Shown here piece after piece: positions 9,260 through 27,038 of a stretch of 30,192 nt of DNA (positions within the stretch are counted from its first letter, which is position 1; each line of letters starts with the position of its first letter). Source of the DNA: a virus (taxonomy: Duplodnaviria; Heunggongvirae; Uroviricota; Caudoviricetes). The notes under the pieces are model-generated. The model made no database searches. It had not been told where the DNA came from and saw nothing but the letters and a program-made list of their open reading frames with translations. The DNA lies in IMG/VR virus record IMGVR_UViG_3300029071_000017; one strand, given 5' to 3'. Both the position numbers and the translations under genes were made by a program.

Positions 9260-11218
9260 TTACGCCGTACATTTCACCAGACCGCGGTGATCAACTGGCG
9301 CGACACCGGCGTCAATACGCACTTTCGTTGTCACGCCATCCACACTGAAGCCCTCCATCTGATCAATATATGGCGTATCCACACCGTTGAGATAAGCCAC
9401 TTCAATCGTATCGGAGCCTTTGGACGCAGCCAGATAAAAGGTGGTCTGGCTGTTATCATCAAGACGAGGCTCTGCAATAACGGTCGCAAAATCTTTCACC
9501 GGGTTAATAATACCGGCGTTAATGTCAGCCCCCTTGACACTTGAGGAGCGAATGACCTGGTTAGCAACAGACTCCATCGCCGTCGGTACCAGTACGAACG
9601 CAGGACGAATATTCAGATGACGCTCCCCCTCTTTCTGAACGCGCATCAACTGGCGGGCTTTATCCAGCGATGCCACGTCCATTGCAGCGCTCTCCAGTAC
9701 GTTTGCATGTTTCGCTTTATCGAACAGACTTACATTATCTGTGGAGATTTTCGGGTTAGACGTCAGAATGGCATAAACCAGATCGGCAATAGTGGATTTC
9801 GCCGCACGGCCCAGTTTCATCGGGACATCGGTCAGCATATTCAGATCATCATTGATAATGGCCTGACGGGTGATACTGAACAGCGAGCCATAGGTCGCCA
9901 GTGCAATAGTGGCCTGTTTATCTCCGGTGGTGACGTATTTATATTCCGCCCCTTCACGCACCTGACGCAGAGCACTGAAGCCCCCCATACCCACACGATG
10001 GGCAATTTTAAAATCAGACAACTGACCTTTCCGCGTCCACTGTTCATAGGTTTCAGGAGCATCTTCCCAGCCCTGCAGAATGGCTTTGTTCGCAACATCC
10101 AGCAGAATATTACCGAAGTCAGACGTACTGTGTGTGAACGCCGCACCGACCATCTGCATCGGGTTATAACTGGAAACCCCAATACCCCGTTCAGTCAGTG
10201 ACATACGGGCATATTCACGCAGGGTCATCCCGTTGTAGACATTATCACGTTCGGTTTTTTCAAATCCGGCACGCGCCATCAGCGCCTGGCGGATCCCGTC
10301 CCCCACAAAATTACCGTTACCGGCATAAATATGAGCCGGGGTATTTTTATTGGATGGCGTGGACTCGCGCCCCATCTCGTTCAACAGCTTTTCGCGGGCC
10401 TGCTCCAGCGAACATTCAGGATCGGCAAGACACTGAGCCTGCAGCGTCTGATAACGCCCGCCAAACATGGCAAACAGATCATTAATACCGTTTACACGCG
10501 CTTTTTGCTCTGCCAGCACCTGCGCACGGATACTGTTTTCATCCACCACGGGTGCTGCTGCCTGCACTGGCGTCCGGGAGGCTGCAGGTTCATCATCCTG
10601 TACGCGTGGAGCACTGTTGCGTGGCGGAGTAATCATGTTTCGAATGGATTCCGGCATCTTTTTAAATTCCTCTGTACGTTTTGACTGAATACATGCCATT
10701 GCCTTAACGGCTGGCGTCACCTGATCAGCAAATCCATGTGCCAGACATTCGGCACCGGACATCCAGGTCTCATCCGCCAGCATGGCAGCAATTTCATCGG
10801 TGGTTTTCCCGGTTTTCTGTGCATAAGCGGGTAACAGAACCGCCTCAACCTTATCGAGCAGGTCGGCATAGGTGCGCATGTCCTCCGCATCACCGCCCGT
10901 AAAGCCAAATGGTTTATGAATCATCATGAAGGTGTTTTCCGGCATAATGACCGGGTTTCCCACCATCGCAATGACCGACGCCATTGACGCCGCCACACCG
11001 TCGACATAAACGGTAATGGACGCACCATGTGTTTTCAGCGCATTAAAAATGGCGATGCCTTCAAAGACATCGCCACCCGGTGAATTGATATGGAGATTAA
11101 TGTGGGTGATATCGCCCAGTGCATTCAGATCACTGATAAACTGCTTCGCTGTAACACCCCAGAAACCAATCTCGTCATAAATATAAATATCCGCGTCACT
11201 CTGGTGACCAGCCTGCAT
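9260..11218 (-). CDS. Prohead protease (ClpP/S49-like) fused to HK97-fold major capsid protein
   Basis: ORF 9260-11479; start set at MQAGHQSDADIYIYDEIGFWG, 13 nt after the portal stop; N-terminal ClpP-like region (...INSPGGDVFEGIAI...), central Ala/Gln-rich scaffold-like linker, C-terminal capsid-like region. Confidence 0.75.
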   Translation of the reverse strand: MQAGHQSDADIYIYDEIGFWGVTAKQFISDLNALGDITHINLHINSPGGDVFEGIAIFNALKTHGASITVYVDGVAASMASVIAMVGNPVIMPENTFMMIHKPFGFTGGDAEDMRTYADLLDKVEAVLLPAYAQKTGKTTDEIAAMLADETWMSGAECLAHGFADQVTPAVKAMACIQSKRTEEFKKMPESIRNMITPPRNSAPRVQDDEPAASRTPVQAAAPVVDENSIRAQVLAEQKARVNGINDLFAMFGGRYQTLQAQCLADPECSLEQAREKLLNEMGRESTPSNKNTPAHIYAGNGNFVGDGIRQALMARAGFEKTERDNVYNGMTLREYARMSLTERGIGVSSYNPMQMVGAAFTHSTSDFGNILLDVANKAILQGWEDAPETYEQWTRKGQLSDFKIAHRVGMGGFSALRQVREGAEYKYVTTGDKQATIALATYGSLFSITRQAIINDDLNMLTDVPMKLGRAAKSTIADLVYAILTSNPKISTDNVSLFDKAKHANVLESAAMDVASLDKARQLMRVQKEGERHLNIRPAFVLVPTAMESVANQVIRSSSVKGADINAGIINPVKDFATVIAEPRLDDNSQTTFYLAASKGSDTIEVAYLNGVDTPYIDQMEGFSVDGVTTKVRIDAGVAPVDHRGLVKCTA

Positions 11219-17703: not shown

Positions 17704-18450
17704 ATGCGACATAATTTTTCTAAAGACACTATAAAAAAATTAGCAGAGCGGGCAGCATTCATTTGTTCAAACCCTTCATGCCCTAGATTGACCATTGGCC
17801 CATCAATTGATGGCAATAAATCAATCAAGACAGGAGTTGCTGCTCACATATGTGCAGCATCTCCTGATGGCCCACGCTATGACATGTCACAATCAGAAAC
17901 AGAAAGGAAGTCAATTAACAATGGCATATGGCTGTGTGCTACTTGTTCTGTATTAATAGATAAGAATCAGGGGCTAGACTATCCGGCACCTGTATTAAGA
18001 AAATGGAAAAAAGATCATGAAAGCCTTATAAGCTCCTGTCTTGAAGGTTCGATTAATATTACCTTCGATGCTTTGAAATATATTCAACAGCATGATGAAA
18101 GAAATCTGGCAAAAAAGATTATAAATGAATTGGATGATAAAGGGGCTTTGTTCGTAGAATATCATCTTGAAAACCCCTGTTTTGTTGCCGAATCACTCAA
18201 AGAGTTAAGAACCTGTTTGACCTCTTTGCTTTCTCAAATCCCAGATGAATCACCTCTATTTATCGTTTGCAAGTCAATTCGAGAAGCATGCCGTTATTAT
18301 ATGAACAACACTTCTAAAGACGCAGGGATTAAAGAGTTAGAATTTTCGTTGGGAGCTGTCAGAAAAATCGTAGGTATCAACGTTAAAAGAATATCAGAAA
18401 CCTACGGGGTTAAACCTAGCCCACAATTATCTACCATAATGCCAGATTAA
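17704..18450 (+). CDS. Moron-encoded protein with HNH-like Cys/His motifs; function unknown
   Basis: 248-aa ORF on the strand opposite to the late genes, AT-rich relative to flanks; N-terminal C-x4-C ... AHI ... NGIWLCATC pattern; own downstream terminator. Confidence 0.6.
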   Translation: MRHNFSKDTIKKLAERAAFICSNPSCPRLTIGPSIDGNKSIKTGVAAHICAASPDGPRYDMSQSETERKSINNGIWLCATCSVLIDKNQGLDYPAPVLRKWKKDHESLISSCLEGSINITFDALKYIQQHDERNLAKKIINELDDKGALFVEYHLENPCFVAESLKELRTCLTSLLSQIPDESPLFIVCKSIREACRYYMNNTSKDAGIKELEFSLGAVRKIVGINVKRISETYGVKPSPQLSTIMPD

Positions 18451-18500: not shown

Positions 18501-18863
18501 TTACTCCATTTCTAAACGAATATCCAGCATCGAGAGACAACCATCTATAAACCCTTCAGCCAACTGTATCTCTATACGTATCAATTTCTCATCTTTTTTG
18601 TATGCTTTTGCTATCTTCCTTTTCGAGATGCCATACAGGTAATGAGCCACAATCAGAGAGTGCTCATATGGTTTTCTCTTCTTAAGAAGAGCAAGACAAC
18701 CTTCAATAATTAATGCATCACTATCTGAACAAGCCTGACGTGTTTTGCTTGTATAGGGAAGAAGCCCTTTAAACCCAGCAGCTATAGGAGAATAGTCTAC
18801 TCCAGAACTATCACTCGCCGCCCATGCTCCCCAACGATCCAGAACCATCTGAATATCACGCAT
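18501..18863 (-). CDS. Late antiterminator Q (phage 82 / QuuD-like type)
   Basis: ORF 18501-18878; start set at MRDIQMVLDRWGAWAA... with GGAG upstream; C-terminal ...EGFIDGCLSMLDIRLEM resembles 82-type Q proteins as I recall them. Confidence 0.7.
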   Translation of the reverse strand: MRDIQMVLDRWGAWAASDSSGVDYSPIAAGFKGLLPYTSKTRQACSDSDALIIEGCLALLKKRKPYEHSLIVAHYLYGISKRKIAKAYKKDEKLIRIEIQLAEGFIDGCLSMLDIRLEME

Positions 18864-18880
18864 CAACTTTCTCCACAAAA

Positions 18881-19042
18881 TCAGGCCAGCACGCCAGTTG
18901 CCAGTGCACGATCGATAAAACGAAATATCAGCTCCAGCTGGGAGCCATATTTCTCTTCAAATGCCACGGTATCCGCATGCAGCTCGTCGTGATGCTTTCT
19001 GCACAAAGGCAACACAAAGAGGTCATGCGCTTTTGTACCCAT
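18881..19042 (-). CDS. Small hypothetical protein (about 53 aa) upstream of Q
   Basis: Not in the ORF track (under 60 aa); my own translation gives MGTKAHDLFVLPLCRKHHDELHADTVAFEEKYG... with an AGGGTGGA RBS. Coordinates hand-derived. Confidence 0.3.
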   Translation of the reverse strand: MGTKAHDLFVLPLCRKHHDELHADTVAFEEKYGSQLELIFRFIDRALATGVLA

Positions 19043-19099
19043 TCCACCCTGACCGTGGCCTATCAGGTGGTGGGGATCATCAGCAGACTTTCCACAACA

Positions 19100-19184
19100 N
19101 NNNNNNNNNNNNNNNNNNNNNNNNNNNNNNNNNNNNNNNNNNNNNNNNNNNNNNNNNNNNNNNNNNNNNNNNNNNNNNNNNNNN
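19100..19184. other. Assembly gap (85 N)
   Basis: Run of n characters in the sequence. Confidence 1.
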
Positions 19185-19868
19185 ATCCACTTTCAGCGCC
19201 AGCACCTTTTTCGCCTTATCCTGGATGATGCTGGTGGCAGGAACCGAAGGCACAAGGTCACTTTCCCGGGTGACAGACGGCACAACAGGCTTCGGTAATC
19301 TCAGTGCCTTACGGGCTGCGCTTTCCGGTAAGGCATCCGCCAGATCATTACGAACCAGCCACCAGCACAGTTCCGGCATTGTCACAACGTGACTGTCATC
19401 AAAACCGAGATCCCGACGCACAACAGATAACACCCAGCGAGCACAGTTATCCGTTGCCATTGATTCCAGCCGTTCCGTGAACTGATCGCGCAGCTGGTTA
19501 TCACAGTGCCAGCACAGACGGATTGCGCCCGGCGTGTGTCGCATTGTGGTCATGTTCTCGCTGTGCCAGTCGGAATGAGGCCACTGGCAGCCTTTTTCAC
19601 GAAGTAACCAACTTTCAAGACATTCCACGCCACCAGCACGACGGATCACTGCCTCATTGCGGAACACGGCCCGAACGGCAGGATCATCCGCCAGCGGTTG
19701 TGATGCCGCCGGAACGGCACCACTGGCGAAAGATGAATAACGCTCCGGCTCAGGCTCCAGCAGGACACGCCCCTGCATAAACAGGGGCATCAGCTCTGAA
19801 CCTGGCCTGAACAATACGATCCCCATACGCGGGGCAATTTCAGGGGTCAGTAGTGCTCTCACGGTCAC
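19185..19868 (-). CDS. Hypothetical nin-region protein, 3' end lost in the assembly gap
   Basis: Open frame from the Met at 19868 continuing into the N run; contains CWHC; follows the KilA-N gene with a 1-nt spacer. Confidence 0.5.
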
Positions 19869-19869
19869 C

Positions 19870-20667
19870 TCAATGAACGGTATCGAGCAGCTTTAACAGC
19901 TCAGGGAATCGGGATTCGAAGAAATGCGGCTGCGTCTCGCGCGGATTTGCGGGACTGGTGATGTTCTTGCCGAACATGCAACCTTTCGCTGTCAGCGACC
20001 AGAATTTTTTGATGTTGTTAATCGCGGTACGGCTGTATCGTTCGCGCTGCTCGACGATCCCCAGCTTCACCATCTGGTGATATGCCTGATTAGCTGTCAG
20101 GCGGATACCATACTGCTTCAGCAGTGCACTCAGTGACAGCGTGGGGCGGCTTGAGCCATCAGGCGCGTCAGCAGGAGCATCAATGGCATAGCGCGGTGCC
20201 AGATTCGGTAAGCCAACAGCCTCCTGAAGCTTCTGACAGGCTCCAAGCACTGATGAGTTAGACAGGTTTAATTCCCGGCGCATAAAGTCCAGCAGGATCA
20301 CACCAGCCTGCATCTTGTCAGCAGCCTGTCCGGATAATTTTTCCGGTGCGCTGGTTACCATGTCGAAAGTACGGATCACCTTCAGATGGAATGACGGGCT
20401 GATCCACATTGCATAGGCATACACCAGTTCTTTGCAGACATACGTCCCCTGGTTATTTCCGCCACGAATAACGTTAACTGGCTCTATATTGACCGAGTTG
20501 CAAATCTGCAACTCGCTTATTAAATGCTCAGTTTGCTCATTGCGGAGCCAGAATGCAGGCTTATGCTTATCCAGAGAACCAGCAGCCCTGTGCAGATCGT
20601 TCAGGCTGTAACGCCCATAAGCATCACGACGAACTTCAATACCATCAATAACCATCAGATTATTCAT
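19870..20667 (-). CDS. KilA-N domain protein (Roi/antirepressor-like)
   Basis: 265-aa ORF; N-terminal region ...YVCKELVYAYAMWISPSFHLKVIRTF... typical of KilA-N/APSES DNA-binding domains. Confidence 0.5.
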   Translation of the reverse strand: MNNLMVIDGIEVRRDAYGRYSLNDLHRAAGSLDKHKPAFWLRNEQTEHLISELQICNSVNIEPVNVIRGGNNQGTYVCKELVYAYAMWISPSFHLKVIRTFDMVTSAPEKLSGQAADKMQAGVILLDFMRRELNLSNSSVLGACQKLQEAVGLPNLAPRYAIDAPADAPDGSSRPTLSLSALLKQYGIRLTANQAYHQMVKLGIVEQRERYSRTAINNIKKFWSLTAKGCMFGKNITSPANPRETQPHFFESRFPELLKLLDTVH

Positions 20668-20686: not shown

Positions 20687-21076
20687 TCAGGCGGCTGCAC
20701 CCGCCGTTTTCTCGTACTTACTGATAGTGATCTCGACCTTCCCTTCCGGGATAACCGGTCCCCACTCCACCAGCATTCTTTTCACCTGACTGTCGTCTTC
20801 CCACACACCCGCGTGGGTCAGGGCGTCAAACAGCGCCTTGTTATAGTTGTCCAGATCGCGGATCCGGTTATCCGGAGGAAACAACACGATCTCCACTGAA
20901 GCAGGTGCCGACGTTGGTTTCGGCAGACGACGTAACTGCTCAACTATTGCTGCGCACGCTGCACTCTGGAATTTTCGCCCCGCCGCGCTTATCAGGCTCT
21001 TACCAGCAAACGCCCCTTTGTTGGGGTGTCGCCAGTACGTGTTCACGCTGGGCGGAAAAGGCAGGATCAGCTTCAT
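20687..21076 (-). CDS. rusA: Holliday junction resolvase RusA
   Basis: 129-aa ORF with LPFPPSVNTYWRH ... RDLDNYNKALFDALTHAGVWEDDSQV, the RusA catalytic motif pattern. Confidence 0.85.
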   Translation of the reverse strand: MKLILPFPPSVNTYWRHPNKGAFAGKSLISAAGRKFQSAACAAIVEQLRRLPKPTSAPASVEIVLFPPDNRIRDLDNYNKALFDALTHAGVWEDDSQVKRMLVEWGPVIPEGKVEITISKYEKTAGAAA

Positions 21077-21399
21077 ACTTTCAGGCCCCTCTCATGTAAC
21101 CAGTGGGTTGCACGCAGCCTTGCGTTTTCCTCACCGGCAAGCAGTGCGCGGATAATCCCGACCGCCTCGCTGTCGTCGTCCTTCACCGCGGTATGAAGCG
21201 TTATCCCCCGGGCCACGCCACGCTTTATCGTGATGACGCCTTTTTTCTCCAGTGCGCGAAGATGCTCTACCGCTGCATTCACTGAACGGTATCCCAGCAT
21301 GGTTGCCACCTCCTGATTGGTTGGCGGAAAGCCACGCTCTTTCTGATAAGAAATCAGCATATCCAGCACCTGCTGCTGGCATTGAGTTAACGTCGTCAT
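21073..21399 (-). CDS. LexA N-terminal DNA-binding-domain-like protein (no peptidase domain)
   Basis: Start set at MTTLTQCQQQVLDMLISYQKERGFPPTNQEVATMLGYRSVNAAVEHLRALEKKGVI, which parallels the LexA winged-helix domain; about 108 aa, no S24 domain; ATGA overlaps on both sides. Confidence 0.55.
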   Translation of the reverse strand: MTTLTQCQQQVLDMLISYQKERGFPPTNQEVATMLGYRSVNAAVEHLRALEKKGVITIKRGVARGITLHTAVKDDDSEAVGIIRALLAGEENARLRATHWLHERGLKV

Positions 21400-21893
21400 T
21401 ACGCCCCCACGTAATTCCCTGACAGATACCACTCATCACTCGATACAGCGCGCTTGCTGCTTTTCCGTAAACACAGCTCACGACGCGCCAGAAAATTGTT
21501 TCGTTCTGGCTGGGAGTGGCTTTCACGGAATGCCGCCATCCACACGGTTGCAGCACGACGGTATAAGCCCCTGGACTCCAGTTCTTCAGCCTGGCGGGTC
21601 AGGCACAAAATCACCCGTGGATCGTTAGTGCCGACATAGAAATTGCGCACAGGTCTGGTTTCTCGAACTGGTTGTGGTTCCGGTTCCTGCGCTCTCTCAG
21701 TCAGGCGCGGGAAATGTCTGCGTGTATCTCCTTCACAACGGTGAGCCACACGCCCACTCTGACGTAACTTGCTTGCAGACTGCAGAACGCGCTGCCGTGA
21801 GTAACCTGCAAAAGCATCCGCAATGTCTCCGGAAGTACACCCCGGATGGGCTTCAATGCATTTCTGAACGTCATTTAACAGACTCATGATCAC
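21399..21893 (-). CDS. PerC-like transcriptional regulator
   Basis: 164-aa ORF; C-terminal half ...QAEELESRGLYRRAATVWMAAF...RRELCL resembles the PerC/Pch signature as I recall it; translationally coupled to the replication initiator. Confidence 0.4.
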   Translation of the reverse strand: MIMSLLNDVQKCIEAHPGCTSGDIADAFAGYSRQRVLQSASKLRQSGRVAHRCEGDTRRHFPRLTERAQEPEPQPVRETRPVRNFYVGTNDPRVILCLTRQAEELESRGLYRRAATVWMAAFRESHSQPERNNFLARRELCLRKSSKRAVSSDEWYLSGNYVGA

Positions 21894-22846
21894 CCTCTGA
21901 ATCCTGCCGGGATCTGGCTGTAGTCCACGTTGTCGTAACTGGCTTTGAAGTACGGGTCCTCGCGTTTTTCGGTGTACGTGCTGACGGACGGCGATAAGCG
22001 CAGGGAAAGCTCATCCCATTTTTCCCGCAGCTTCGACGGGCTGAGCACGTTACGGCACCAGAACGGATCGCGGCTGACACGGCTGTACATCTCGCAGATT
22101 TGTTTGTGAGTACGCCCATCCTGTACACACATCAGGCGAATTTCGTTTGCCCAGGCTGTCCAGTTCGGTTCTTTGGGACGAACCACCTCGCCGTCACATT
22201 CGGCAGCCTGCTCGTACAGGGCGATGATTTTTTTCCAGAGCCACTGTGCGCAGGTCAAATCATCCTGCGTCCCCCACTGGCGCTTTTTAGGGCTGAATAC
22301 AACCGCATCAGGATGGCGAGTTAAAAAATCCTGTTCAGCCGTCTGCGTGTCCGGTTGCGAAGCGTCCGGACGAGAAGGTTTTTTATCTGACGGATCATGT
22401 TTTGATTTTACTGACGGATCCCCGCCAGATTCTGACGGGTGAAAACCCGCTTTTTTGCCAGATTTCGACGCATCAAATTTTGACGGGTCAGATTTTGATG
22501 CGTCAGATTTTGATGCGTCAGATTTTGACGGGTCAGAATCTGACAGTTGAGAAAATGCCGCTGCCTGAAGCTTCGCAACGTTAAGCTGATAAACATTCGA
22601 CGCATTGCGGTTACCCTGGCGACGCGCCTTACGCGTTAACCAGCCTTCTGCTTCCAGCCGTGCGATAGCCGTTCTGACGGTACTCATCCCCGCGCCAATC
22701 TGACGGGCAATGGTTTCAATTGATGGCCAGCACACACCTTCGTCATTACTGAAATCAGCCAGGCGGGCCATAATTGCCACGCTGGATAACTTCATGCCTG
22801 ATGCAGCGCAACCATCCCATACATAGCCGGTTAATTTAGTGCTCAT
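21890..22846 (-). CDS. Replication initiator (O-like) with HTH N-terminus and iteron-encoded SKSDA repeats
   Basis: 318-aa ORF; N-terminal HTH-like region; central SKSDASKSDASKSDPSKFDASKS repeats encoded by tandem 15-bp DNA repeats; position after the cro/cII-like genes. Confidence 0.65.
   Translation of the reverse strand: MSTKLTGYVWDGCAASGMKLSSVAIMARLADFSNDEGVCWPSIETIARQIGAGMSTVRTAIARLEAEGWLTRKARRQGNRNASNVYQLNVAKLQAAAFSQLSDSDPSKSDASKSDASKSDPSKFDASKSGKKAGFHPSESGGDPSVKSKHDPSDKKPSRPDASQPDTQTAEQDFLTRHPDAVVFSPKKRQWGTQDDLTCAQWLWKKIIALYEQAAECDGEVVRPKEPNWTAWANEIRLMCVQDGRTHKQICEMYSRVSRDPFWCRNVLSPSKLREKWDELSLRLSPSVSTYTEKREDPYFKASYDNVDYSQIPAGFRG
22426..22548. repeat. Origin-like iteron array: about 7 tandem 15-bp repeats CAGATTTTGAYGSGT inside the initiator gene
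   Basis: Direct repeats read in the sequence (cagattctgacgggt, cagatttcgacgcat, caaattttgacgggt, cagattttgatgcgt x2, cagattttgacgggt, cagaatctgacagtt). Approximate coordinates. Confidence 0.65.
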
Positions 22847-22855
22847 GACCGACCT

Positions 22856-23194
22856 CTATTTCCCTGAATTTACGACGAAACTGTTCGAGCGGACTGAAGC
22901 ATTCATGCTCATAACCTTCGCGGAGGTAGATAACCCGTTGTGTTTCCGGCTCCCAACGAATGACTCTGACGGGCACTCCGTAGTGATCTTTGAACCAGCG
23001 GTTAACTTGTCGCAAAGGACTGTCTCCTTCTGCCGGTTGAAATCACCCACAGCCCACTCTGCAAAGCTGTGGGTTACAATTTCCCTGTCACCTGGTACAT
23101 TCACTGCATAGCAATATTCCACCTTCGCTTTTCCACCCGGTACAGGAAGCGCAATCAGTTGCGAGCGACGGTAGTGTGTTGTTAAACTGTTCAT
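22856..23194 (-). CDS. Hypothetical protein
   Basis: 112-aa ORF whose start overlaps the upstream gene stop and whose stop lies about 10 nt before the initiator start; no recognisable motif. Confidence 0.4.
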
Positions 23195-23760
23195 GCGTTA
23201 GTTTCTCCACAACCAGAAGCAATCGACGCCACGACGCCCGGAGCTGCACACTCGCGGGCGTCATTACTTTCTGAAATGCAAAAAATTTTGTAGACAAGTG
23301 CTGCATGCTCCTGCAGCTTCGAAATTGAGAGATACAGCTCGTCGTTAATTGCTGTCTTCTCATGCGGTTCCACTACACCGTCTTCGATTGCTGAACGAAT
23401 CTGTTTTGAATAACTGCCGATCTGTTCAATGACTTCCAGCAGACGCTGGTTAATATCGGCGTTGTCCACATCCTCGACGTCAGGAAGAGACACAAAGACG
23501 CCATTTGCAGACTGCGCCACAGCATCAGCAATGAAGTGAGTGCCACCAGCACGCTGTAAAACCATTGCCCATCCCAGCGGGAAAATCTGATCGCCATCTG
23601 CACGAAGGCGGTTGAATAAAGCGTTTTCTGTTACATCGAGCCAGTCAGCCGCTTCAGCGTAACCACCCGGCAACGCCGCGATAGTTTTTCTGACAGCTTT
23701 CACGTACCACTCAGGCTGTTTTTCTATTTTCCAGTGATGCTTACCCACGATTAGCCTCAT
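23191..23760 (-). CDS. Putative early regulatory protein (CII/YdaT-like position)
   Basis: 189-aa ORF immediately downstream of the cro-like gene; the family assignment is a weak recollection. Confidence 0.4.
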
Positions 23761-23791
23761 CGTTCTGTGGTTAAAAATTGAAAGTGTTCTG

Positions 23792-23992
23792 CTAATCTTT
23801 CGGATAGATATCCGGTCTTAAGTCAGATTTCGTAATTGCACCTGACGTGCATTGCTCAAGTTTTTTAGCCAGCACAAAACTGGCTTTTTTATAGCCATTG
23901 AAAACCAGCCGTAAGTAGCCAGGTGTTGAGCCAACTTTTCCGGCCAACTCGCCCTGCTGTTCTTTGGTTAAAGAGTCCCAATACGCCTTCAT
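23792..23992 (-). CDS. Cro-like HTH regulator
   Basis: ORF 23792-24295; start set at MKAYWDSLTKEQQGELAGKVGSTPGYLRLVFNGYKKAS (HTH) with GGAGG upstream; divergent from the repressor gene. Confidence 0.65.
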   Translation of the reverse strand: MKAYWDSLTKEQQGELAGKVGSTPGYLRLVFNGYKKASFVLAKKLEQCTSGAITKSDLRPDIYPKD

Positions 23993-24082
23993 ACAATATG
24001 TACCTCCGGTATACATATTACATGATTGAAATGAACCTTCAAGATACTTGTACCTTAACGGTACAAGGGTTTTAATTTTGTT
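23993..24082. promoter_or_regulatory. Immunity operator/promoter region (OR; divergent pR and pRM)
   Basis: Perfect 21-bp palindrome CTTGTACC-TTAAC-GGTACAAG (about 24046-24066) and imperfect palindrome ATATGTACCTCCGGTATACATAT (about 23994-24016); pR candidate TTGAAG-16-TAATAT on the minus strand; pRM candidate TTGTAC-17-TTTAAT ending about 7 nt before the repressor ATG. Confidence 0.6.
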
Positions 24083-24757
24083 ATGAAAACAATCCATGAC
24101 ATCCGGCGGTCTAACGCCAGAAAACTGAGAGATGGTGTTGGCGGGAATTCTTCCTTTGCCACTATGATTGATCGCGAGCCAACCCAGACCAGCAGGTTTA
24201 TGGGAGATGGTGCTACTAAAAATATCGGTGACAGCATGGCACGACACATCGAAAAATGTTTCGACCTGCCTGTCGGATGGCTCGATCAAGAACACCAGAC
24301 AACGAACATCACAAAAAAACCTGATGTTTCAATCACTAATAAACAAATCACATTAGTCCCTGTCATATCATGGGTACAGGCCGGAGCATGGAAAGAAGTT
24401 GGATATTCTGAGGTTGATTTGAGCACAGCAGAAACGTATCCCTGCCCTGTCCCCTGTGGGGAAATGACTTATATCTTGCGGGTGATAGGTGATTCAATGA
24501 TTGATGAGTACCGCCCGGGAGACATGATTTTTGTCGATCCTGAAGTACCTGCCTGCCACGGTGACGACGTTATTGCATTGATGCACGATACAGGTGAAAC
24601 CACCTTCAAAAGGTTGATAGAAGATGGGACACAGCGTTATCTCAAAGCGTTAAACCCAAACTGGCCTGAGCCTTACATTAAGATCAACGGTAATTGCTCT
24701 ATAATTGGTACAGTGATTTTCTCAGGAAAACCAAGAAGATACAAAATCAAAGCCTAA
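24083..24757 (+). CDS. CI/C2-type repressor (HTH N-terminus, LexA-like S24 autopeptidase C-terminus)
   Basis: 224-aa ORF; C-terminal ...ISWVQAGAWKEV...VIGDSMIDEY...ETTFKRLIEDGTQRYLKALNPNWPEPYIKINGNCSIIG parallels P22 C2 and the LexA catalytic Ser/Lys region. Confidence 0.85.
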   Translation: MKTIHDIRRSNARKLRDGVGGNSSFATMIDREPTQTSRFMGDGATKNIGDSMARHIEKCFDLPVGWLDQEHQTTNITKKPDVSITNKQITLVPVISWVQAGAWKEVGYSEVDLSTAETYPCPVPCGEMTYILRVIGDSMIDEYRPGDMIFVDPEVPACHGDDVIALMHDTGETTFKRLIEDGTQRYLKALNPNWPEPYIKINGNCSIIGTVIFSGKPRRYKIKA

Positions 24758-26685: not shown

Positions 26686-27038
26686 ATGTTTTCGAAATGG
26701 AAGGGTTTCTTCGTGGGAGATGTGTACCGCGAGATCTGAAAGTGAATGAAACGGATGCTGAATACCTGGTGCGTAAATTCGATGCGCTTGAAGCTAAATG
26801 TGCAGCACAGGAAAACAAAGTAATACCAGTGTCAACTGAACTGCCACCAGCAAATGAAAGTGTTTTGTTATTCGATGCTAACGGAGAAGGCTGGCTAATT
26901 GGCTGGCGTTCTCTCTGGTACACCTGGGGACAAAAAGAAACCGGAGAATGGCAGTGGACATTTCAGGTCGGGGACCTTGAAAACGTCAATATCACTCACT
27001 GGGCAGTAATGCCAAAAGCACCGGAGGCTGGAGCATAA
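26676..27038 (+). CDS. Hypothetical early protein (Trp-rich small protein)
   Basis: 120-aa ORF overlapping the HD gene end by 10 nt; same strand and operon as xis/int. Confidence 0.5.
   Translation: MRMNVFEMEGFLRGRCVPRDLKVNETDAEYLVRKFDALEAKCAAQENKVIPVSTELPPANESVLLFDANGEGWLIGWRSLWYTWGQKETGEWQWTFQVGDLENVNITHWAVMPKAPEAGA

What the first reader, a model, noticed from the sequence alone, without database searches (positions are those of the whole stretch)
21073..21399. Prophage-encoded LexA DNA-binding domain without the autopeptidase domain
The ~108-aa protein aligns by eye to the N-terminal winged-helix domain of LexA (..QQQVLDML..GFPPT..E.A..LGYRS.NAAVEHLRALEKKGVI..) but is too short to carry the S24 cleavage domain. 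A non-cleavable LexA-like binder could occupy SOS boxes or a phage operator and uncouple some genes from RecA-mediated derepression. It is translationally coupled (ATGA overlaps) to the PerC-like gene upstream and rusA downstream.
Basis: partly seen in the sequence, partly recalled or inferred. Interest (0 to 1): 0.55.

Follow-up and report, generated by a model that had tools for sequence, protein, structure and literature searches.

The report
Prophage mini-LexA DNA-binding protein
A small prophage gene encodes a copy of the DNA-gripping half of the SOS repressor LexA, with a short conserved helical tail in place of the self-cleaving half; it is real, very common in E. coli prophages and already annotated, but its DNA target and purpose are untested.

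Summary
Window 21073-21399 (minus strand) encodes a 108-aa protein whose residues 1-69 are a LexA winged-helix domain (Pfam E 2.9e-19; AlphaFold model 1.0 Å rmsd from E. coli LexA on DNA). It has no S24 peptidase domain.

It is not a bare truncation. Residues 75-103 form a two-helix hairpin that is conserved in relatives of 39-52% identity and is under the same purifying selection as the DNA-binding domain (dN/dS about 0.19).

The gene is annotated "LexA family transcriptional regulator" (PHROG 362) and occurs in 2233 of 5426 complete E. coli genomes and in SfV, SfII, mEp460, cdtI and Stx2 phages. It is a fixed part of the replication–RusA–DUF968–Q early-right module.

The idea that it plugs SOS boxes is weakened:
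- The base-contact residue Glu44 is replaced in every family member checked.
- Positions 43-45 of the recognition helix vary between clades.
- The window has no SOS box.

In a Klebsiella/Enterobacter clade, however, the gene lies in an operon behind a canonical SOS box, with DinI in part of the clade.

The closest characterised analogue is GIL01 gp6, a truncated LexA homologue with its own operator. Function is untested; interest is moderate.

The parts
21073..21399 (-). mini-LexA coding sequence, 108 aa (LexA family transcriptional regulator; SfV orf42 homologue; PHROG 362)
21193..21399 (-). residues 1-69: LexA-type winged helix-turn-helix (helices 6-22, 28-35, 40-52; beta wing 56-58 and 66-68)
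   Evidence: Pfam E 2.9e-19; 1lea E 6e-16; AF2 model and Foldseek hit to 3jso at rmsd 1.0 Å
21244..21285 (-). residues 39-52: recognition helix alpha-3, SVNAAVEHLRALEK. LexA contact residues S39, N41, A42 and E45 are kept; E44 is replaced by V
21076..21192 (-). residues 70-108: low-confidence linker (71-74), then a conserved two-helix hairpin (75-88, 93-103) with invariant A97 and L101. Putative dimerisation module replacing the S24 domain
21399..21893 (-). upstream PerC-family (YfdN-like) gene; its TAA stop overlaps the mini-LexA ATG by one base (TAATG)
20687..21076 (-). downstream RusA Holliday-junction resolvase gene; its ATG overlaps the mini-LexA TGA (ATGA)
19870..20667 (-). KilA-N domain protein (PHROG 129)
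18881..19868 (-). DUF968 / HNH-like gene, interrupted by a run of 85 N at 19100-19184
18501..18878 (-). Q antiterminator, end of the early-right operon
21890..22846 (-). O-like replication initiator, directly upstream in the same overlapping gene string
23191..24757 (.). immunity region that should drive the operon: cII-like gene (23191-23760, minus), cro-like gene (within 23792-24295, minus) and S24-type cI (24083-24757, plus)
   Evidence: homologous layout in SfV

Best explanation
The gene makes a small DNA-binding regulator derived from the N-terminal domain of a gammaproteobacterial LexA. It has lost the RecA-responsive S24 autopeptidase and gained a conserved C-terminal helical hairpin, which most likely holds two subunits together.

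It sits in the string of overlapping genes O-like, PerC-like, mini-LexA, RusA, KilA-N, DUF968, Q. It should therefore be made as a delayed-early product of the rightward early promoter after infection or induction, not in the quiescent lysogen.

I think it most likely binds an operator of its own that is related to the SOS box but not identical to it. That would make it a phage-specific transcription factor like GIL01 gp6, not a general stand-in for LexA.

Shown here: the fold, the domain loss, the conserved tail, purifying selection, the conserved gene neighbourhood and the altered recognition helix. Inferred: dimerisation, expression timing, DNA binding itself and the nature of the target.
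For: - Fold and homology.
- Residues invariant across the family (S39, K53, R64, G65, I66 and others) are the same residues as in E. coli LexA, so a working DNA-binding surface is being preserved.
- The tail is conserved at 39-52% identity and is under purifying selection: dN/dS 0.189 for the tail against 0.196 for the DNA-binding domain, from 72 distinct sequences.
- E44 is never retained and positions 43-45 differ between and within clades, although all hosts are Enterobacterales, whose LexA box I take to be uniform (own knowledge). This pattern fits operators that co-evolve with the phage.
- Precedent: GIL01 gp6 is a truncated LexA homologue that binds its own palindrome, not the host LexA box, and activates the late promoter (PMC6182141).
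- Stand-alone LexA domains of 65-150 aa are common in viral proteomes.
- On the coding strand there is no terminator-like site between the cII-like gene and the 3' part of the DUF968 gene. The only promoter-like match there (20686-20659) lies downstream of rusA.
Against: - No candidate operator was found. A palindrome survey across 131 loci returned only lineage-specific conservation and the SOS box itself. Short inverted repeats near Q, the holin and the immunity region were unremarkable.
- In the E. coli clade four of the five LexA contact residues remain. In the L006-type clade the helix (SPNAAAEHLK) differs from LexA only at E44, so binding to CTGT-type half-sites cannot be excluded.
- Dimerisation through the tail is untested; only a monomer model was possible and its pTM is 0.57.
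- No experimental data exist for any member of this family in the searched literature.
Confidence: 0.4

Rival explanations
1. RecA-proof SOS re-repressor. The protein binds canonical CTGT-N8-ACAG boxes while host LexA is cleaved. It shuts down host SOS genes and LexA-controlled rivals (antirepressor-induced prophages, colicin operons, SOS toxins) during lytic growth. In phages where it sits behind an SOS box it also turns its own operon off again.
For: - 50% identity and 1.0 Å rmsd to the LexA N-terminal domain; S39, N41, A42 and E45 are kept in the E. coli clade.
- In the Klebsiella/Enterobacter/Raoultella clade, 28 of 34 loci have a strong SOS box 0.5-0.7 kb upstream. In L006 and L008 it directly follows a sigma-70-like promoter and a terminator, and heads an operon of small ORF (preceded by DinI in some loci), mini-LexA, RusA/DUF968 and Q.
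- DinI, a RecA modulator, lies upstream in 17 loci.
- An AriS-like pRha+ANT gene follows RusA in another clade. The ANT/KilAC domain of AriS damps the SOS response in Listeria (PMC9043618).
- Own knowledge: the free LexA N-terminal fragment retains operator binding.
Against: - E44 is lost in every member, and E45 becomes L, I or A in clades that still carry perfectly canonical boxes upstream. Those boxes are therefore best explained as host-LexA sites.
- No SOS box in this 30-kb window.
- The recognition helix diversifies although the host box is constant.
Confidence: 0.25
2. DNA-targeting or regulatory accessory of the recombination/nuclease genes it travels with (RusA resolvase, DUF968 HNH-like protein), not a transcription factor.
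For: - Of 126 loci with enough downstream sequence, DUF968 follows within 3 kb in 125 and RusA within 1.5 kb in 104, 94 of them with a 4-nt start/stop overlap.
- The link persists across three different replication modules: HTH_36/O-like, DUF1376 plus lambda P, and DnaT plus DnaC-like.
Against: - The loci are not independent: about 80 come from one clade. Conserved order in a nin-type module may be plain co-inheritance.
- RusA is missing or separated in some loci (L065, L009).
- No known resolvase or HNH enzyme needs a LexA-type partner (own knowledge).
Confidence: 0.1
3. Decoy or modulator acting on proteins instead of DNA, for example a trans-cleavage substrate or competitor for LexA or CI peptidase domains through the retained 'AGE' stretch that aligns with the LexA Ala84-Gly85 cleavage site.
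For: - HMMER and BLASTP extend the alignment through LexA residues 70-86, pairing LLAGE with VAAGE.
- Intermolecular cleavage by the LexA and CI C-terminal domains is established (Kim and Little 1993, seen only as a reference-list entry; the content is from my own knowledge).
Against: - The Ala-Gly pair is not conserved even among close relatives (VG in P0036, AN in P0038 and P0043) and is absent in distant ones.
- The segment is predicted to be a confident alpha-helix, not the LexA cleavage loop.
Confidence: 0.04

Closest known systems
E. coli LexA, N-terminal DNA-binding domain (PDB 1lea, 3jso)
   Same: Same winged-helix fold (rmsd 1.0 Å), about 50% identity over residues 1-69. Wing and scaffold residues are identical, and four of the five base-contact residues are kept.
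   Different: No S24 peptidase or dimerisation domain, no conserved cleavage site, E44 replaced by V, an extra conserved C-terminal helical hairpin, and phage-encoded in the early-right operon.
GIL01 gp6 (Bacillus thuringiensis tectivirus), a truncated LexA homologue that activates late promoter P3 (PMC6182141)
   Same: A temperate-phage protein consisting essentially of a LexA DNA-binding domain, 44% identical to its own host's LexA, made early in the lytic programme.
   Different: gp6 has no helical tail (domain plus 14 residues). Its operator GaCACAnnTGTGaC and its activator role are shown experimentally; nothing is shown for the enterobacterial family. The host phylum and phage type differ, so this is probably an independent capture. 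I did not compare the two sequences directly.
LexA N-terminal autocleavage fragment (residues 1-84)
   Same: Nearly the same extent of LexA sequence. Own knowledge: the fragment keeps weak operator binding.
   Different: Own knowledge: the natural fragment is cleared by ClpXP through its new C-terminus. The phage protein has a different, structured C-terminus.
Gifsy prophage LexA-controlled operon dinI - antirepressor (gfoA/gftA) - irsA (PMC3121763)
   Same: The sister clade (L006, L008, L065 and similar) has the same layout: terminator, promoter with LexA box, (dinI), small ORF, then a third gene, upstream of Q. The phage repressor there lacks an S24 domain.
   Different: The third gene in Gifsy-2 is DUF1367 (irsA homologue), not a LexA domain. 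The small ORF is not similar to GftA by BLASTP. This window's phage has an S24-type cI and no such promoter.

Membership tests
LexA SOS repressor (NCBIfam TIGR00498 equivalog) | N-terminal LexA-type winged-helix DNA-binding domain | tested here: met
   Pfam PF01726 E 2.9e-19, full profile; 1lea E 6e-16; Foldseek 3jso rmsd 1.0 Å
LexA SOS repressor (NCBIfam TIGR00498 equivalog) | C-terminal S24 serine-lysine autopeptidase and dimerisation domain | tested here: not met
   The protein ends at residue 108; no Peptidase_S24 hit. TIGR00498 matches only positions 1-91 of 203, 70.5 bits against a cutoff of 110.95
LexA SOS repressor (NCBIfam TIGR00498 equivalog) | Conserved Ala-Gly self-cleavage site in a loop | tested here: not met
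   A87-G88 aligns with LexA A84-G85, but it is VG or AN in close relatives, absent in distant ones, and lies in a predicted helix
LexA SOS repressor (NCBIfam TIGR00498 equivalog) | Recognition-helix contact residues S39, N41, A42, E44, E45 (PMC3091678) | tested here: not met
   Four of five are present here. E44 is V here and A, V, F or T in all 127 parsed family loci. E45 is variable in other clades
LexA SOS repressor (NCBIfam TIGR00498 equivalog) | Binds CTGT-N8-ACAG SOS boxes and represses | not testable with these tools
   Indirect only: no SOS box in the window; boxes lie upstream of the gene in one sister clade
PHROG 362 / NCBI 'LexA family transcriptional regulator' (stand-alone phage LexA-domain proteins of about 106 aa) | Full-length match to the family profile, including the C-terminal tail | tested here: met
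   phrog_362 E 1.2e-59, residues 1-108 on profile positions 1-106 of 106. 97-100% identical proteins are named this way in RefSeq
gp6-type truncated LexA homologues acting as phage transcription factors | [quoted passage not shown] | tested here: met
   definition from PMC6182141
gp6-type truncated LexA homologues acting as phage transcription factors | Binds its own palindromic operator at a phage promoter and changes transcription | not testable with these tools
   No candidate operator emerged
gp6-type truncated LexA homologues acting as phage transcription factors | Direct sequence relationship to gp6 | not tested
BFVD hits include Tectiviridae LexA-domain proteins at 23-30% identity
IrsA (third gene of the Gifsy LexA-controlled operon) | Homology to the Gifsy-2 irsA homologue STM1020 | tested here: not met
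   STM1020 is DUF1367 (E 4e-98) with no LexA domain

The most novel reading that the evidence does not exclude
About 40% of E. coli genomes, including Stx2-phage lysogens, carry a RecA-proof LexA mimic that re-occupies SOS boxes once a prophage has fired. It would curtail the host SOS response and silence LexA-controlled competitors (antirepressor-induced prophages, colicins, SOS toxins). In Klebsiella-type phages it would give the LexA-controlled antirepressor operon a built-in off-switch.
Probability: 0.2. Interest if true: 0.75.

Novelty: new member of a known kind. Interest (0 to 1): 0.4.

Why it matters
The SOS response controls mutagenesis, prophage induction and Shiga-toxin release. A non-cleavable LexA-derived DNA binder present in 2233 of 5426 complete E. 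coli genomes, and in Stx2a, Stx2c, cdtI and Shigella serotype-converting phages, could alter any of these if it touches SOS boxes. If instead it has its own operator, it is an unstudied regulator in the early-to-late transition of a very common lambdoid module. Either way it is cheap to test: one 108-aa protein, an EMSA and a reporter. As it stands it is an annotated but functionally unstudied family, not a new kind of system.

Tried and rejected
1. SOS boxes in the window. The pattern CTGT-N8-ACAG with one mismatch gave 15 hits against 10.9 expected. A 20-mer PWM built from about 20 E. coli boxes recalled from memory gave a best score of 11.3. The PWM was validated on the experimentally defined Gifsy-2 box. 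Result: none present.

2. Mini-LexA as the Gifsy irsA homologue. This was suggested by the identical operon layout, but the Gifsy-2 irsA homologue is DUF1367.

3. The small ORF upstream in the sister clade as a GftA antirepressor homologue. No BLASTP similarity and no Pfam hit. It remains only a positional analogue.

4. De novo operator search. Exact 6+6 inverted repeats with spacers of 0-12 across 131 loci were dominated by shared ancestry; the only cross-clade motif was the SOS box. Fixed-offset comparison of regions downstream of Q failed because of mosaicism. Local inverted repeats and promoter/terminator scans in the window were unremarkable.

5. Retained LexA cleavage site. The Ala-Gly pair is not conserved and the segment is helical.

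6. Searches that returned nothing useful. The search for related loci with the 17-sequence alignment failed for lack of a conserved stretch. A viral scan with P0213 found nothing.

7. Literature. None found a functional study of this enterobacterial family. The LexA-DNA structure paper was not held, so the role of E44 rests on a secondary citation.

8. PADLOC gave only a marginal, uninformative hit for the protein.

Full report
**The observation.** Window 21073-21399 on the minus strand is an ORF of 108 codons starting MTTLTQCQQQVLDML. A longer GTG-initiated reading (119 aa) exists. The ATG start matches the 108-aa RefSeq proteins (clusters with 2527 and 782 member sequences) and the N-terminus of LexA itself, and it is preceded by a GGGGG Shine-Dalgarno-like run.

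Pfam LexA_DNA_bind matches end to end (E 2.9e-19). phmmer finds the E. coli LexA N-terminal domain without gaps, residues 2-70 (E 6e-16). BLASTP against E. coli LexA gives 39/90 identities.

An AlphaFold2 model built on 17 family sequences (mean pLDDT 84.3) has the LexA topology H-H-H-beta-beta. It superposes on LexA in the LexA-DNA complex 3jso at 1.0 Å rmsd with 50% identity.

There is no S24 domain. The NCBIfam lexA equivalog covers only model positions 1-91 and falls below its cutoff.

The PerC-like junction is TAATG, a one-base overlap.

Residues 70-108 are not leftover sequence. After a short low-confidence linker (71-74), the model has two confident helices, 75-88 and 93-103.

Full-length relatives at 39-52% identity, found by an exhaustive HMMER scan of 1.84 billion representatives, keep this tail with the consensus EAVxxIRALLAxEENARxRAxxWLxxRG. 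A97 and L101 are invariant.

In 72 distinct nucleotide sequences of one clade, dN/dS is 0.189 for the tail and 0.196 for the DNA-binding domain. The family is thus "LexA N-terminal domain plus a conserved helical hairpin". LexA dimerises through the domain that is missing here, so the hairpin is the natural candidate for a replacement dimer interface. This is an inference; only a monomer could be modelled.

The first tail helix still aligns with the LexA hinge and cleavage region, pairing LLAGE with VAAGE. The Ala-Gly pair is not conserved even in close relatives and the segment is helical, so a cleavage function is unlikely.

**Where it lives.** The window is a lambdoid prophage beside proA with an SfV-like early region. 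On the minus strand the genes run cro-like, cII-like, O-like replication, PerC-like (YfdN family), mini-LexA, RusA, KilA-N, DUF968, Q, then the lysis genes. An S24-type cI is divergent.

On that strand the scan found no terminator-like site between the cII-like gene and the 3' part of DUF968. The only promoter-like match there lies downstream of rusA, at 20686-20659. I therefore infer delayed-early expression from the rightward early promoter, by analogy with the lambda nin region.

The same gene, at least 95% identical, is in 2233 of 5426 complete E. coli genomes, with up to four copies per genome. It is also in mEp460, SfII, SfV (orf42), SfIV, cdtI and Stx2a/Stx2c phages, annotated "LexA family transcriptional regulator", "LexA DNA binding domain protein" or "transcriptional repressor". 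It matches PHROG 362 over its full length (E 1e-59). A survey of Stx phages lists it as pham 237 without functional comment (PMC8136144).

In SfV, mEp460 and cdtI a dam-like gene sits between the PerC-like gene and mini-LexA. The window lacks it precisely, the junction TAATG being shared.

**Family-wide neighbourhood.** I collected 166 loci; 130 carry a short family member with the tail. Of 126 with at least 1.5 kb of downstream sequence:
- DUF968 follows within 3 kb in 125.
- RusA follows in 104, in 94 of them with the four-base overlap.
- A KilA-N or pRha+ANT gene follows in 67.

This holds across three unrelated replication modules. The loci are not independent, since about 80 come from one clade, so this is strong synteny but not proof of a functional partnership.

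**Does it bind SOS boxes?** The recognition helix carries most of the specific LexA contacts (PMC4951493). The contact residues are S39, N41, A42, E44 and E45 (PMC3091678).

The window protein reads SVNAAVEHLR against SPNAAEEHLK in LexA. Across 127 parsed family loci, position 44 is never Glu (it is A, V, F or T). Position 45 is E, A, L, I, D or T. Inside a single clade, E45 alternates with Ala in 21 of 64 distinct proteins. The genuine LexA fragments in alignment A2 keep NAAEEH in 8 of 9 cases.

All these hosts are Enterobacterales, whose LexA box I take to be uniform (own knowledge). A diversifying helix therefore argues for phage-specific, co-evolving operators, not for the host box.

The window contains no SOS box. 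The PWM used for this was built from boxes I recalled from memory. It recovers the experimentally defined Gifsy-2 LexA box just upstream of dinI (PMC3121763).

**A link to SOS in a sister clade.** In the Klebsiella/Enterobacter/Raoultella clade (members with an N-terminal extension), 28 of 34 loci have a high-scoring SOS box 0.5-0.7 kb upstream of the gene. This is a sharp peak in the positional histogram.

In L006 and L008 the box directly follows a TTGCAA-N17-AATAAT type promoter, which itself follows an intrinsic terminator. It heads an operon of small ORF (75-101 aa), mini-LexA, RusA and/or DUF968, and Q. In L065 a DinI gene comes first. A DinI-like gene lies within 1.2 kb upstream in 17 loci.

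The phage repressor in L006 has no S24 domain. The layout therefore copies the Gifsy LexA-controlled dinI–antirepressor–irsA operon. I tested whether mini-LexA is IrsA; it is not, because the Gifsy-2 irsA homologue is DUF1367.

So in that clade the protein is made when host LexA is cleaved, sometimes together with a RecA modulator. That keeps the SOS re-repressor idea alive, as a possible self-limiting pulse. Two of the four helix types in that clade have L or I at position 45 while their upstream boxes stay perfectly canonical. The boxes are thus most simply host-LexA sites.

**Comparison with known systems.** The nearest characterised case is GIL01 gp6, a truncated LexA homologue 44% identical to its host's LexA domain. 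It binds its own palindrome overlapping the -35 of late promoter P3 and activates it (PMC6182141). Foldseek against viral models shows many stand-alone LexA domains of 65-150 aa, including ones from Tectiviridae.

The protein here is a member of that general kind: a phage-borne LexA DNA-binding domain without the peptidase. It differs in having the conserved helical hairpin, in sitting in a lambdoid early-right operon, and in having no demonstrated target. It fails membership of LexA proper on three tested features: the peptidase domain, the cleavage site and the full contact set.

**Verdict.** My estimates for the competing explanations are:
- LexA-derived regulator, insensitive to RecA, dimerised by its tail, expressed early in lytic growth, with a private operator related to the SOS box: about 0.4.
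- SOS-box re-repressor: about 0.25.
- Accessory of RusA/DUF968: about 0.1.
- Protein-level decoy: about 0.04.
- The remainder is unassigned.

No function has been tested for this family in the literature I could search (10 of 10 searches used). It is a new member of a known kind, already annotated, and of moderate interest, mainly because of its prevalence and its presence in toxin-converting phages.

Noticed in passing
window 17704-18450 (+): A 248-aa gene in reverse orientation sits between Q and the holin, the classic moron site. It has no Pfam hit but matches the PADLOC candidate defence protein PDC-M68A (E 7.5e-27). Its N-terminal 115-130 residues also match models labelled endonuclease effector and SAVED_HNH.
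   Followed up: partly
window 19100-19184: A run of 85 N interrupts the DUF968/HNH-like gene, so that gene cannot be read through in this window.
   Followed up: no
L010 5103-5122; L001 (mEp460) 11149-11168; L002 836-855: Near-perfect SOS boxes (PWM 26-27 bits) lie inside the coding sequence of S24-type cI-like repressor genes. In L010 the box is at the linker between the HTH and peptidase parts; in L001 and L002 it lies about 165-230 nt into the gene. Possible LexA-controlled internal promoter or roadblock within the repressor gene. The cI in this window is a different type and has none.
   Followed up: partly
L168 (SfV) 34170-34189; L169 (cdtI) 44083-44102; L001 (mEp460) 2098-2117; L008 8739-8758: A conserved SOS box, TACTGTAAAAATAAACAGTG (one base different in L008), sits at or just before the 5' end of the late-region DNA methyltransferase gene between Q and the holin. 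This suggests LexA control of, or a LexA roadblock in, the late transcript. The module is absent from this window.
   Followed up: partly
L006 5480-6408; L008 5480-6357; L065 7300-8327: In Klebsiella/Enterobacter-type phages a terminator, sigma-70-like promoter and SOS box precede (DinI), an unannotated 75-101-aa ORF and mini-LexA. The L006 phage repressor lacks an S24 domain. The small ORF is thus a positional analogue of the Gifsy antirepressors, though it shows no BLASTP similarity to GftA.
   Followed up: partly
window 21397-21401 versus L168 (SfV) 29610-30267: The dam-like gene found between the PerC-like gene and mini-LexA in SfV, mEp460 and cdtI is missing here exactly from start codon to start codon. 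The TAATG junction is shared, so it behaves as a cassette-like presence/absence.
   Followed up: yes
proteins P0132, P0133, P0148, P0151, P0153 and others: Some database proteins contain two LexA DNA-binding domains in tandem (two matched stretches, 140-350 aa). They could be single-chain 'dimers' of the same domain.
   Followed up: no
window 19870-20667 (-); L003 6732-7448: The gene after rusA is a KilA-N protein here and a pRha+ANT protein in another clade. pRha+ANT is one of the AriS-like architectures; the ANT/KilAC domain of AriS was shown to damp the SOS response in Listeria (PMC9043618).
   Followed up: no
L169 (cdtI) 26720-26767: Two adjacent strong SOS boxes lie just upstream of the reverse-oriented dinI gene next to the cdt toxin genes.
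   Followed up: no
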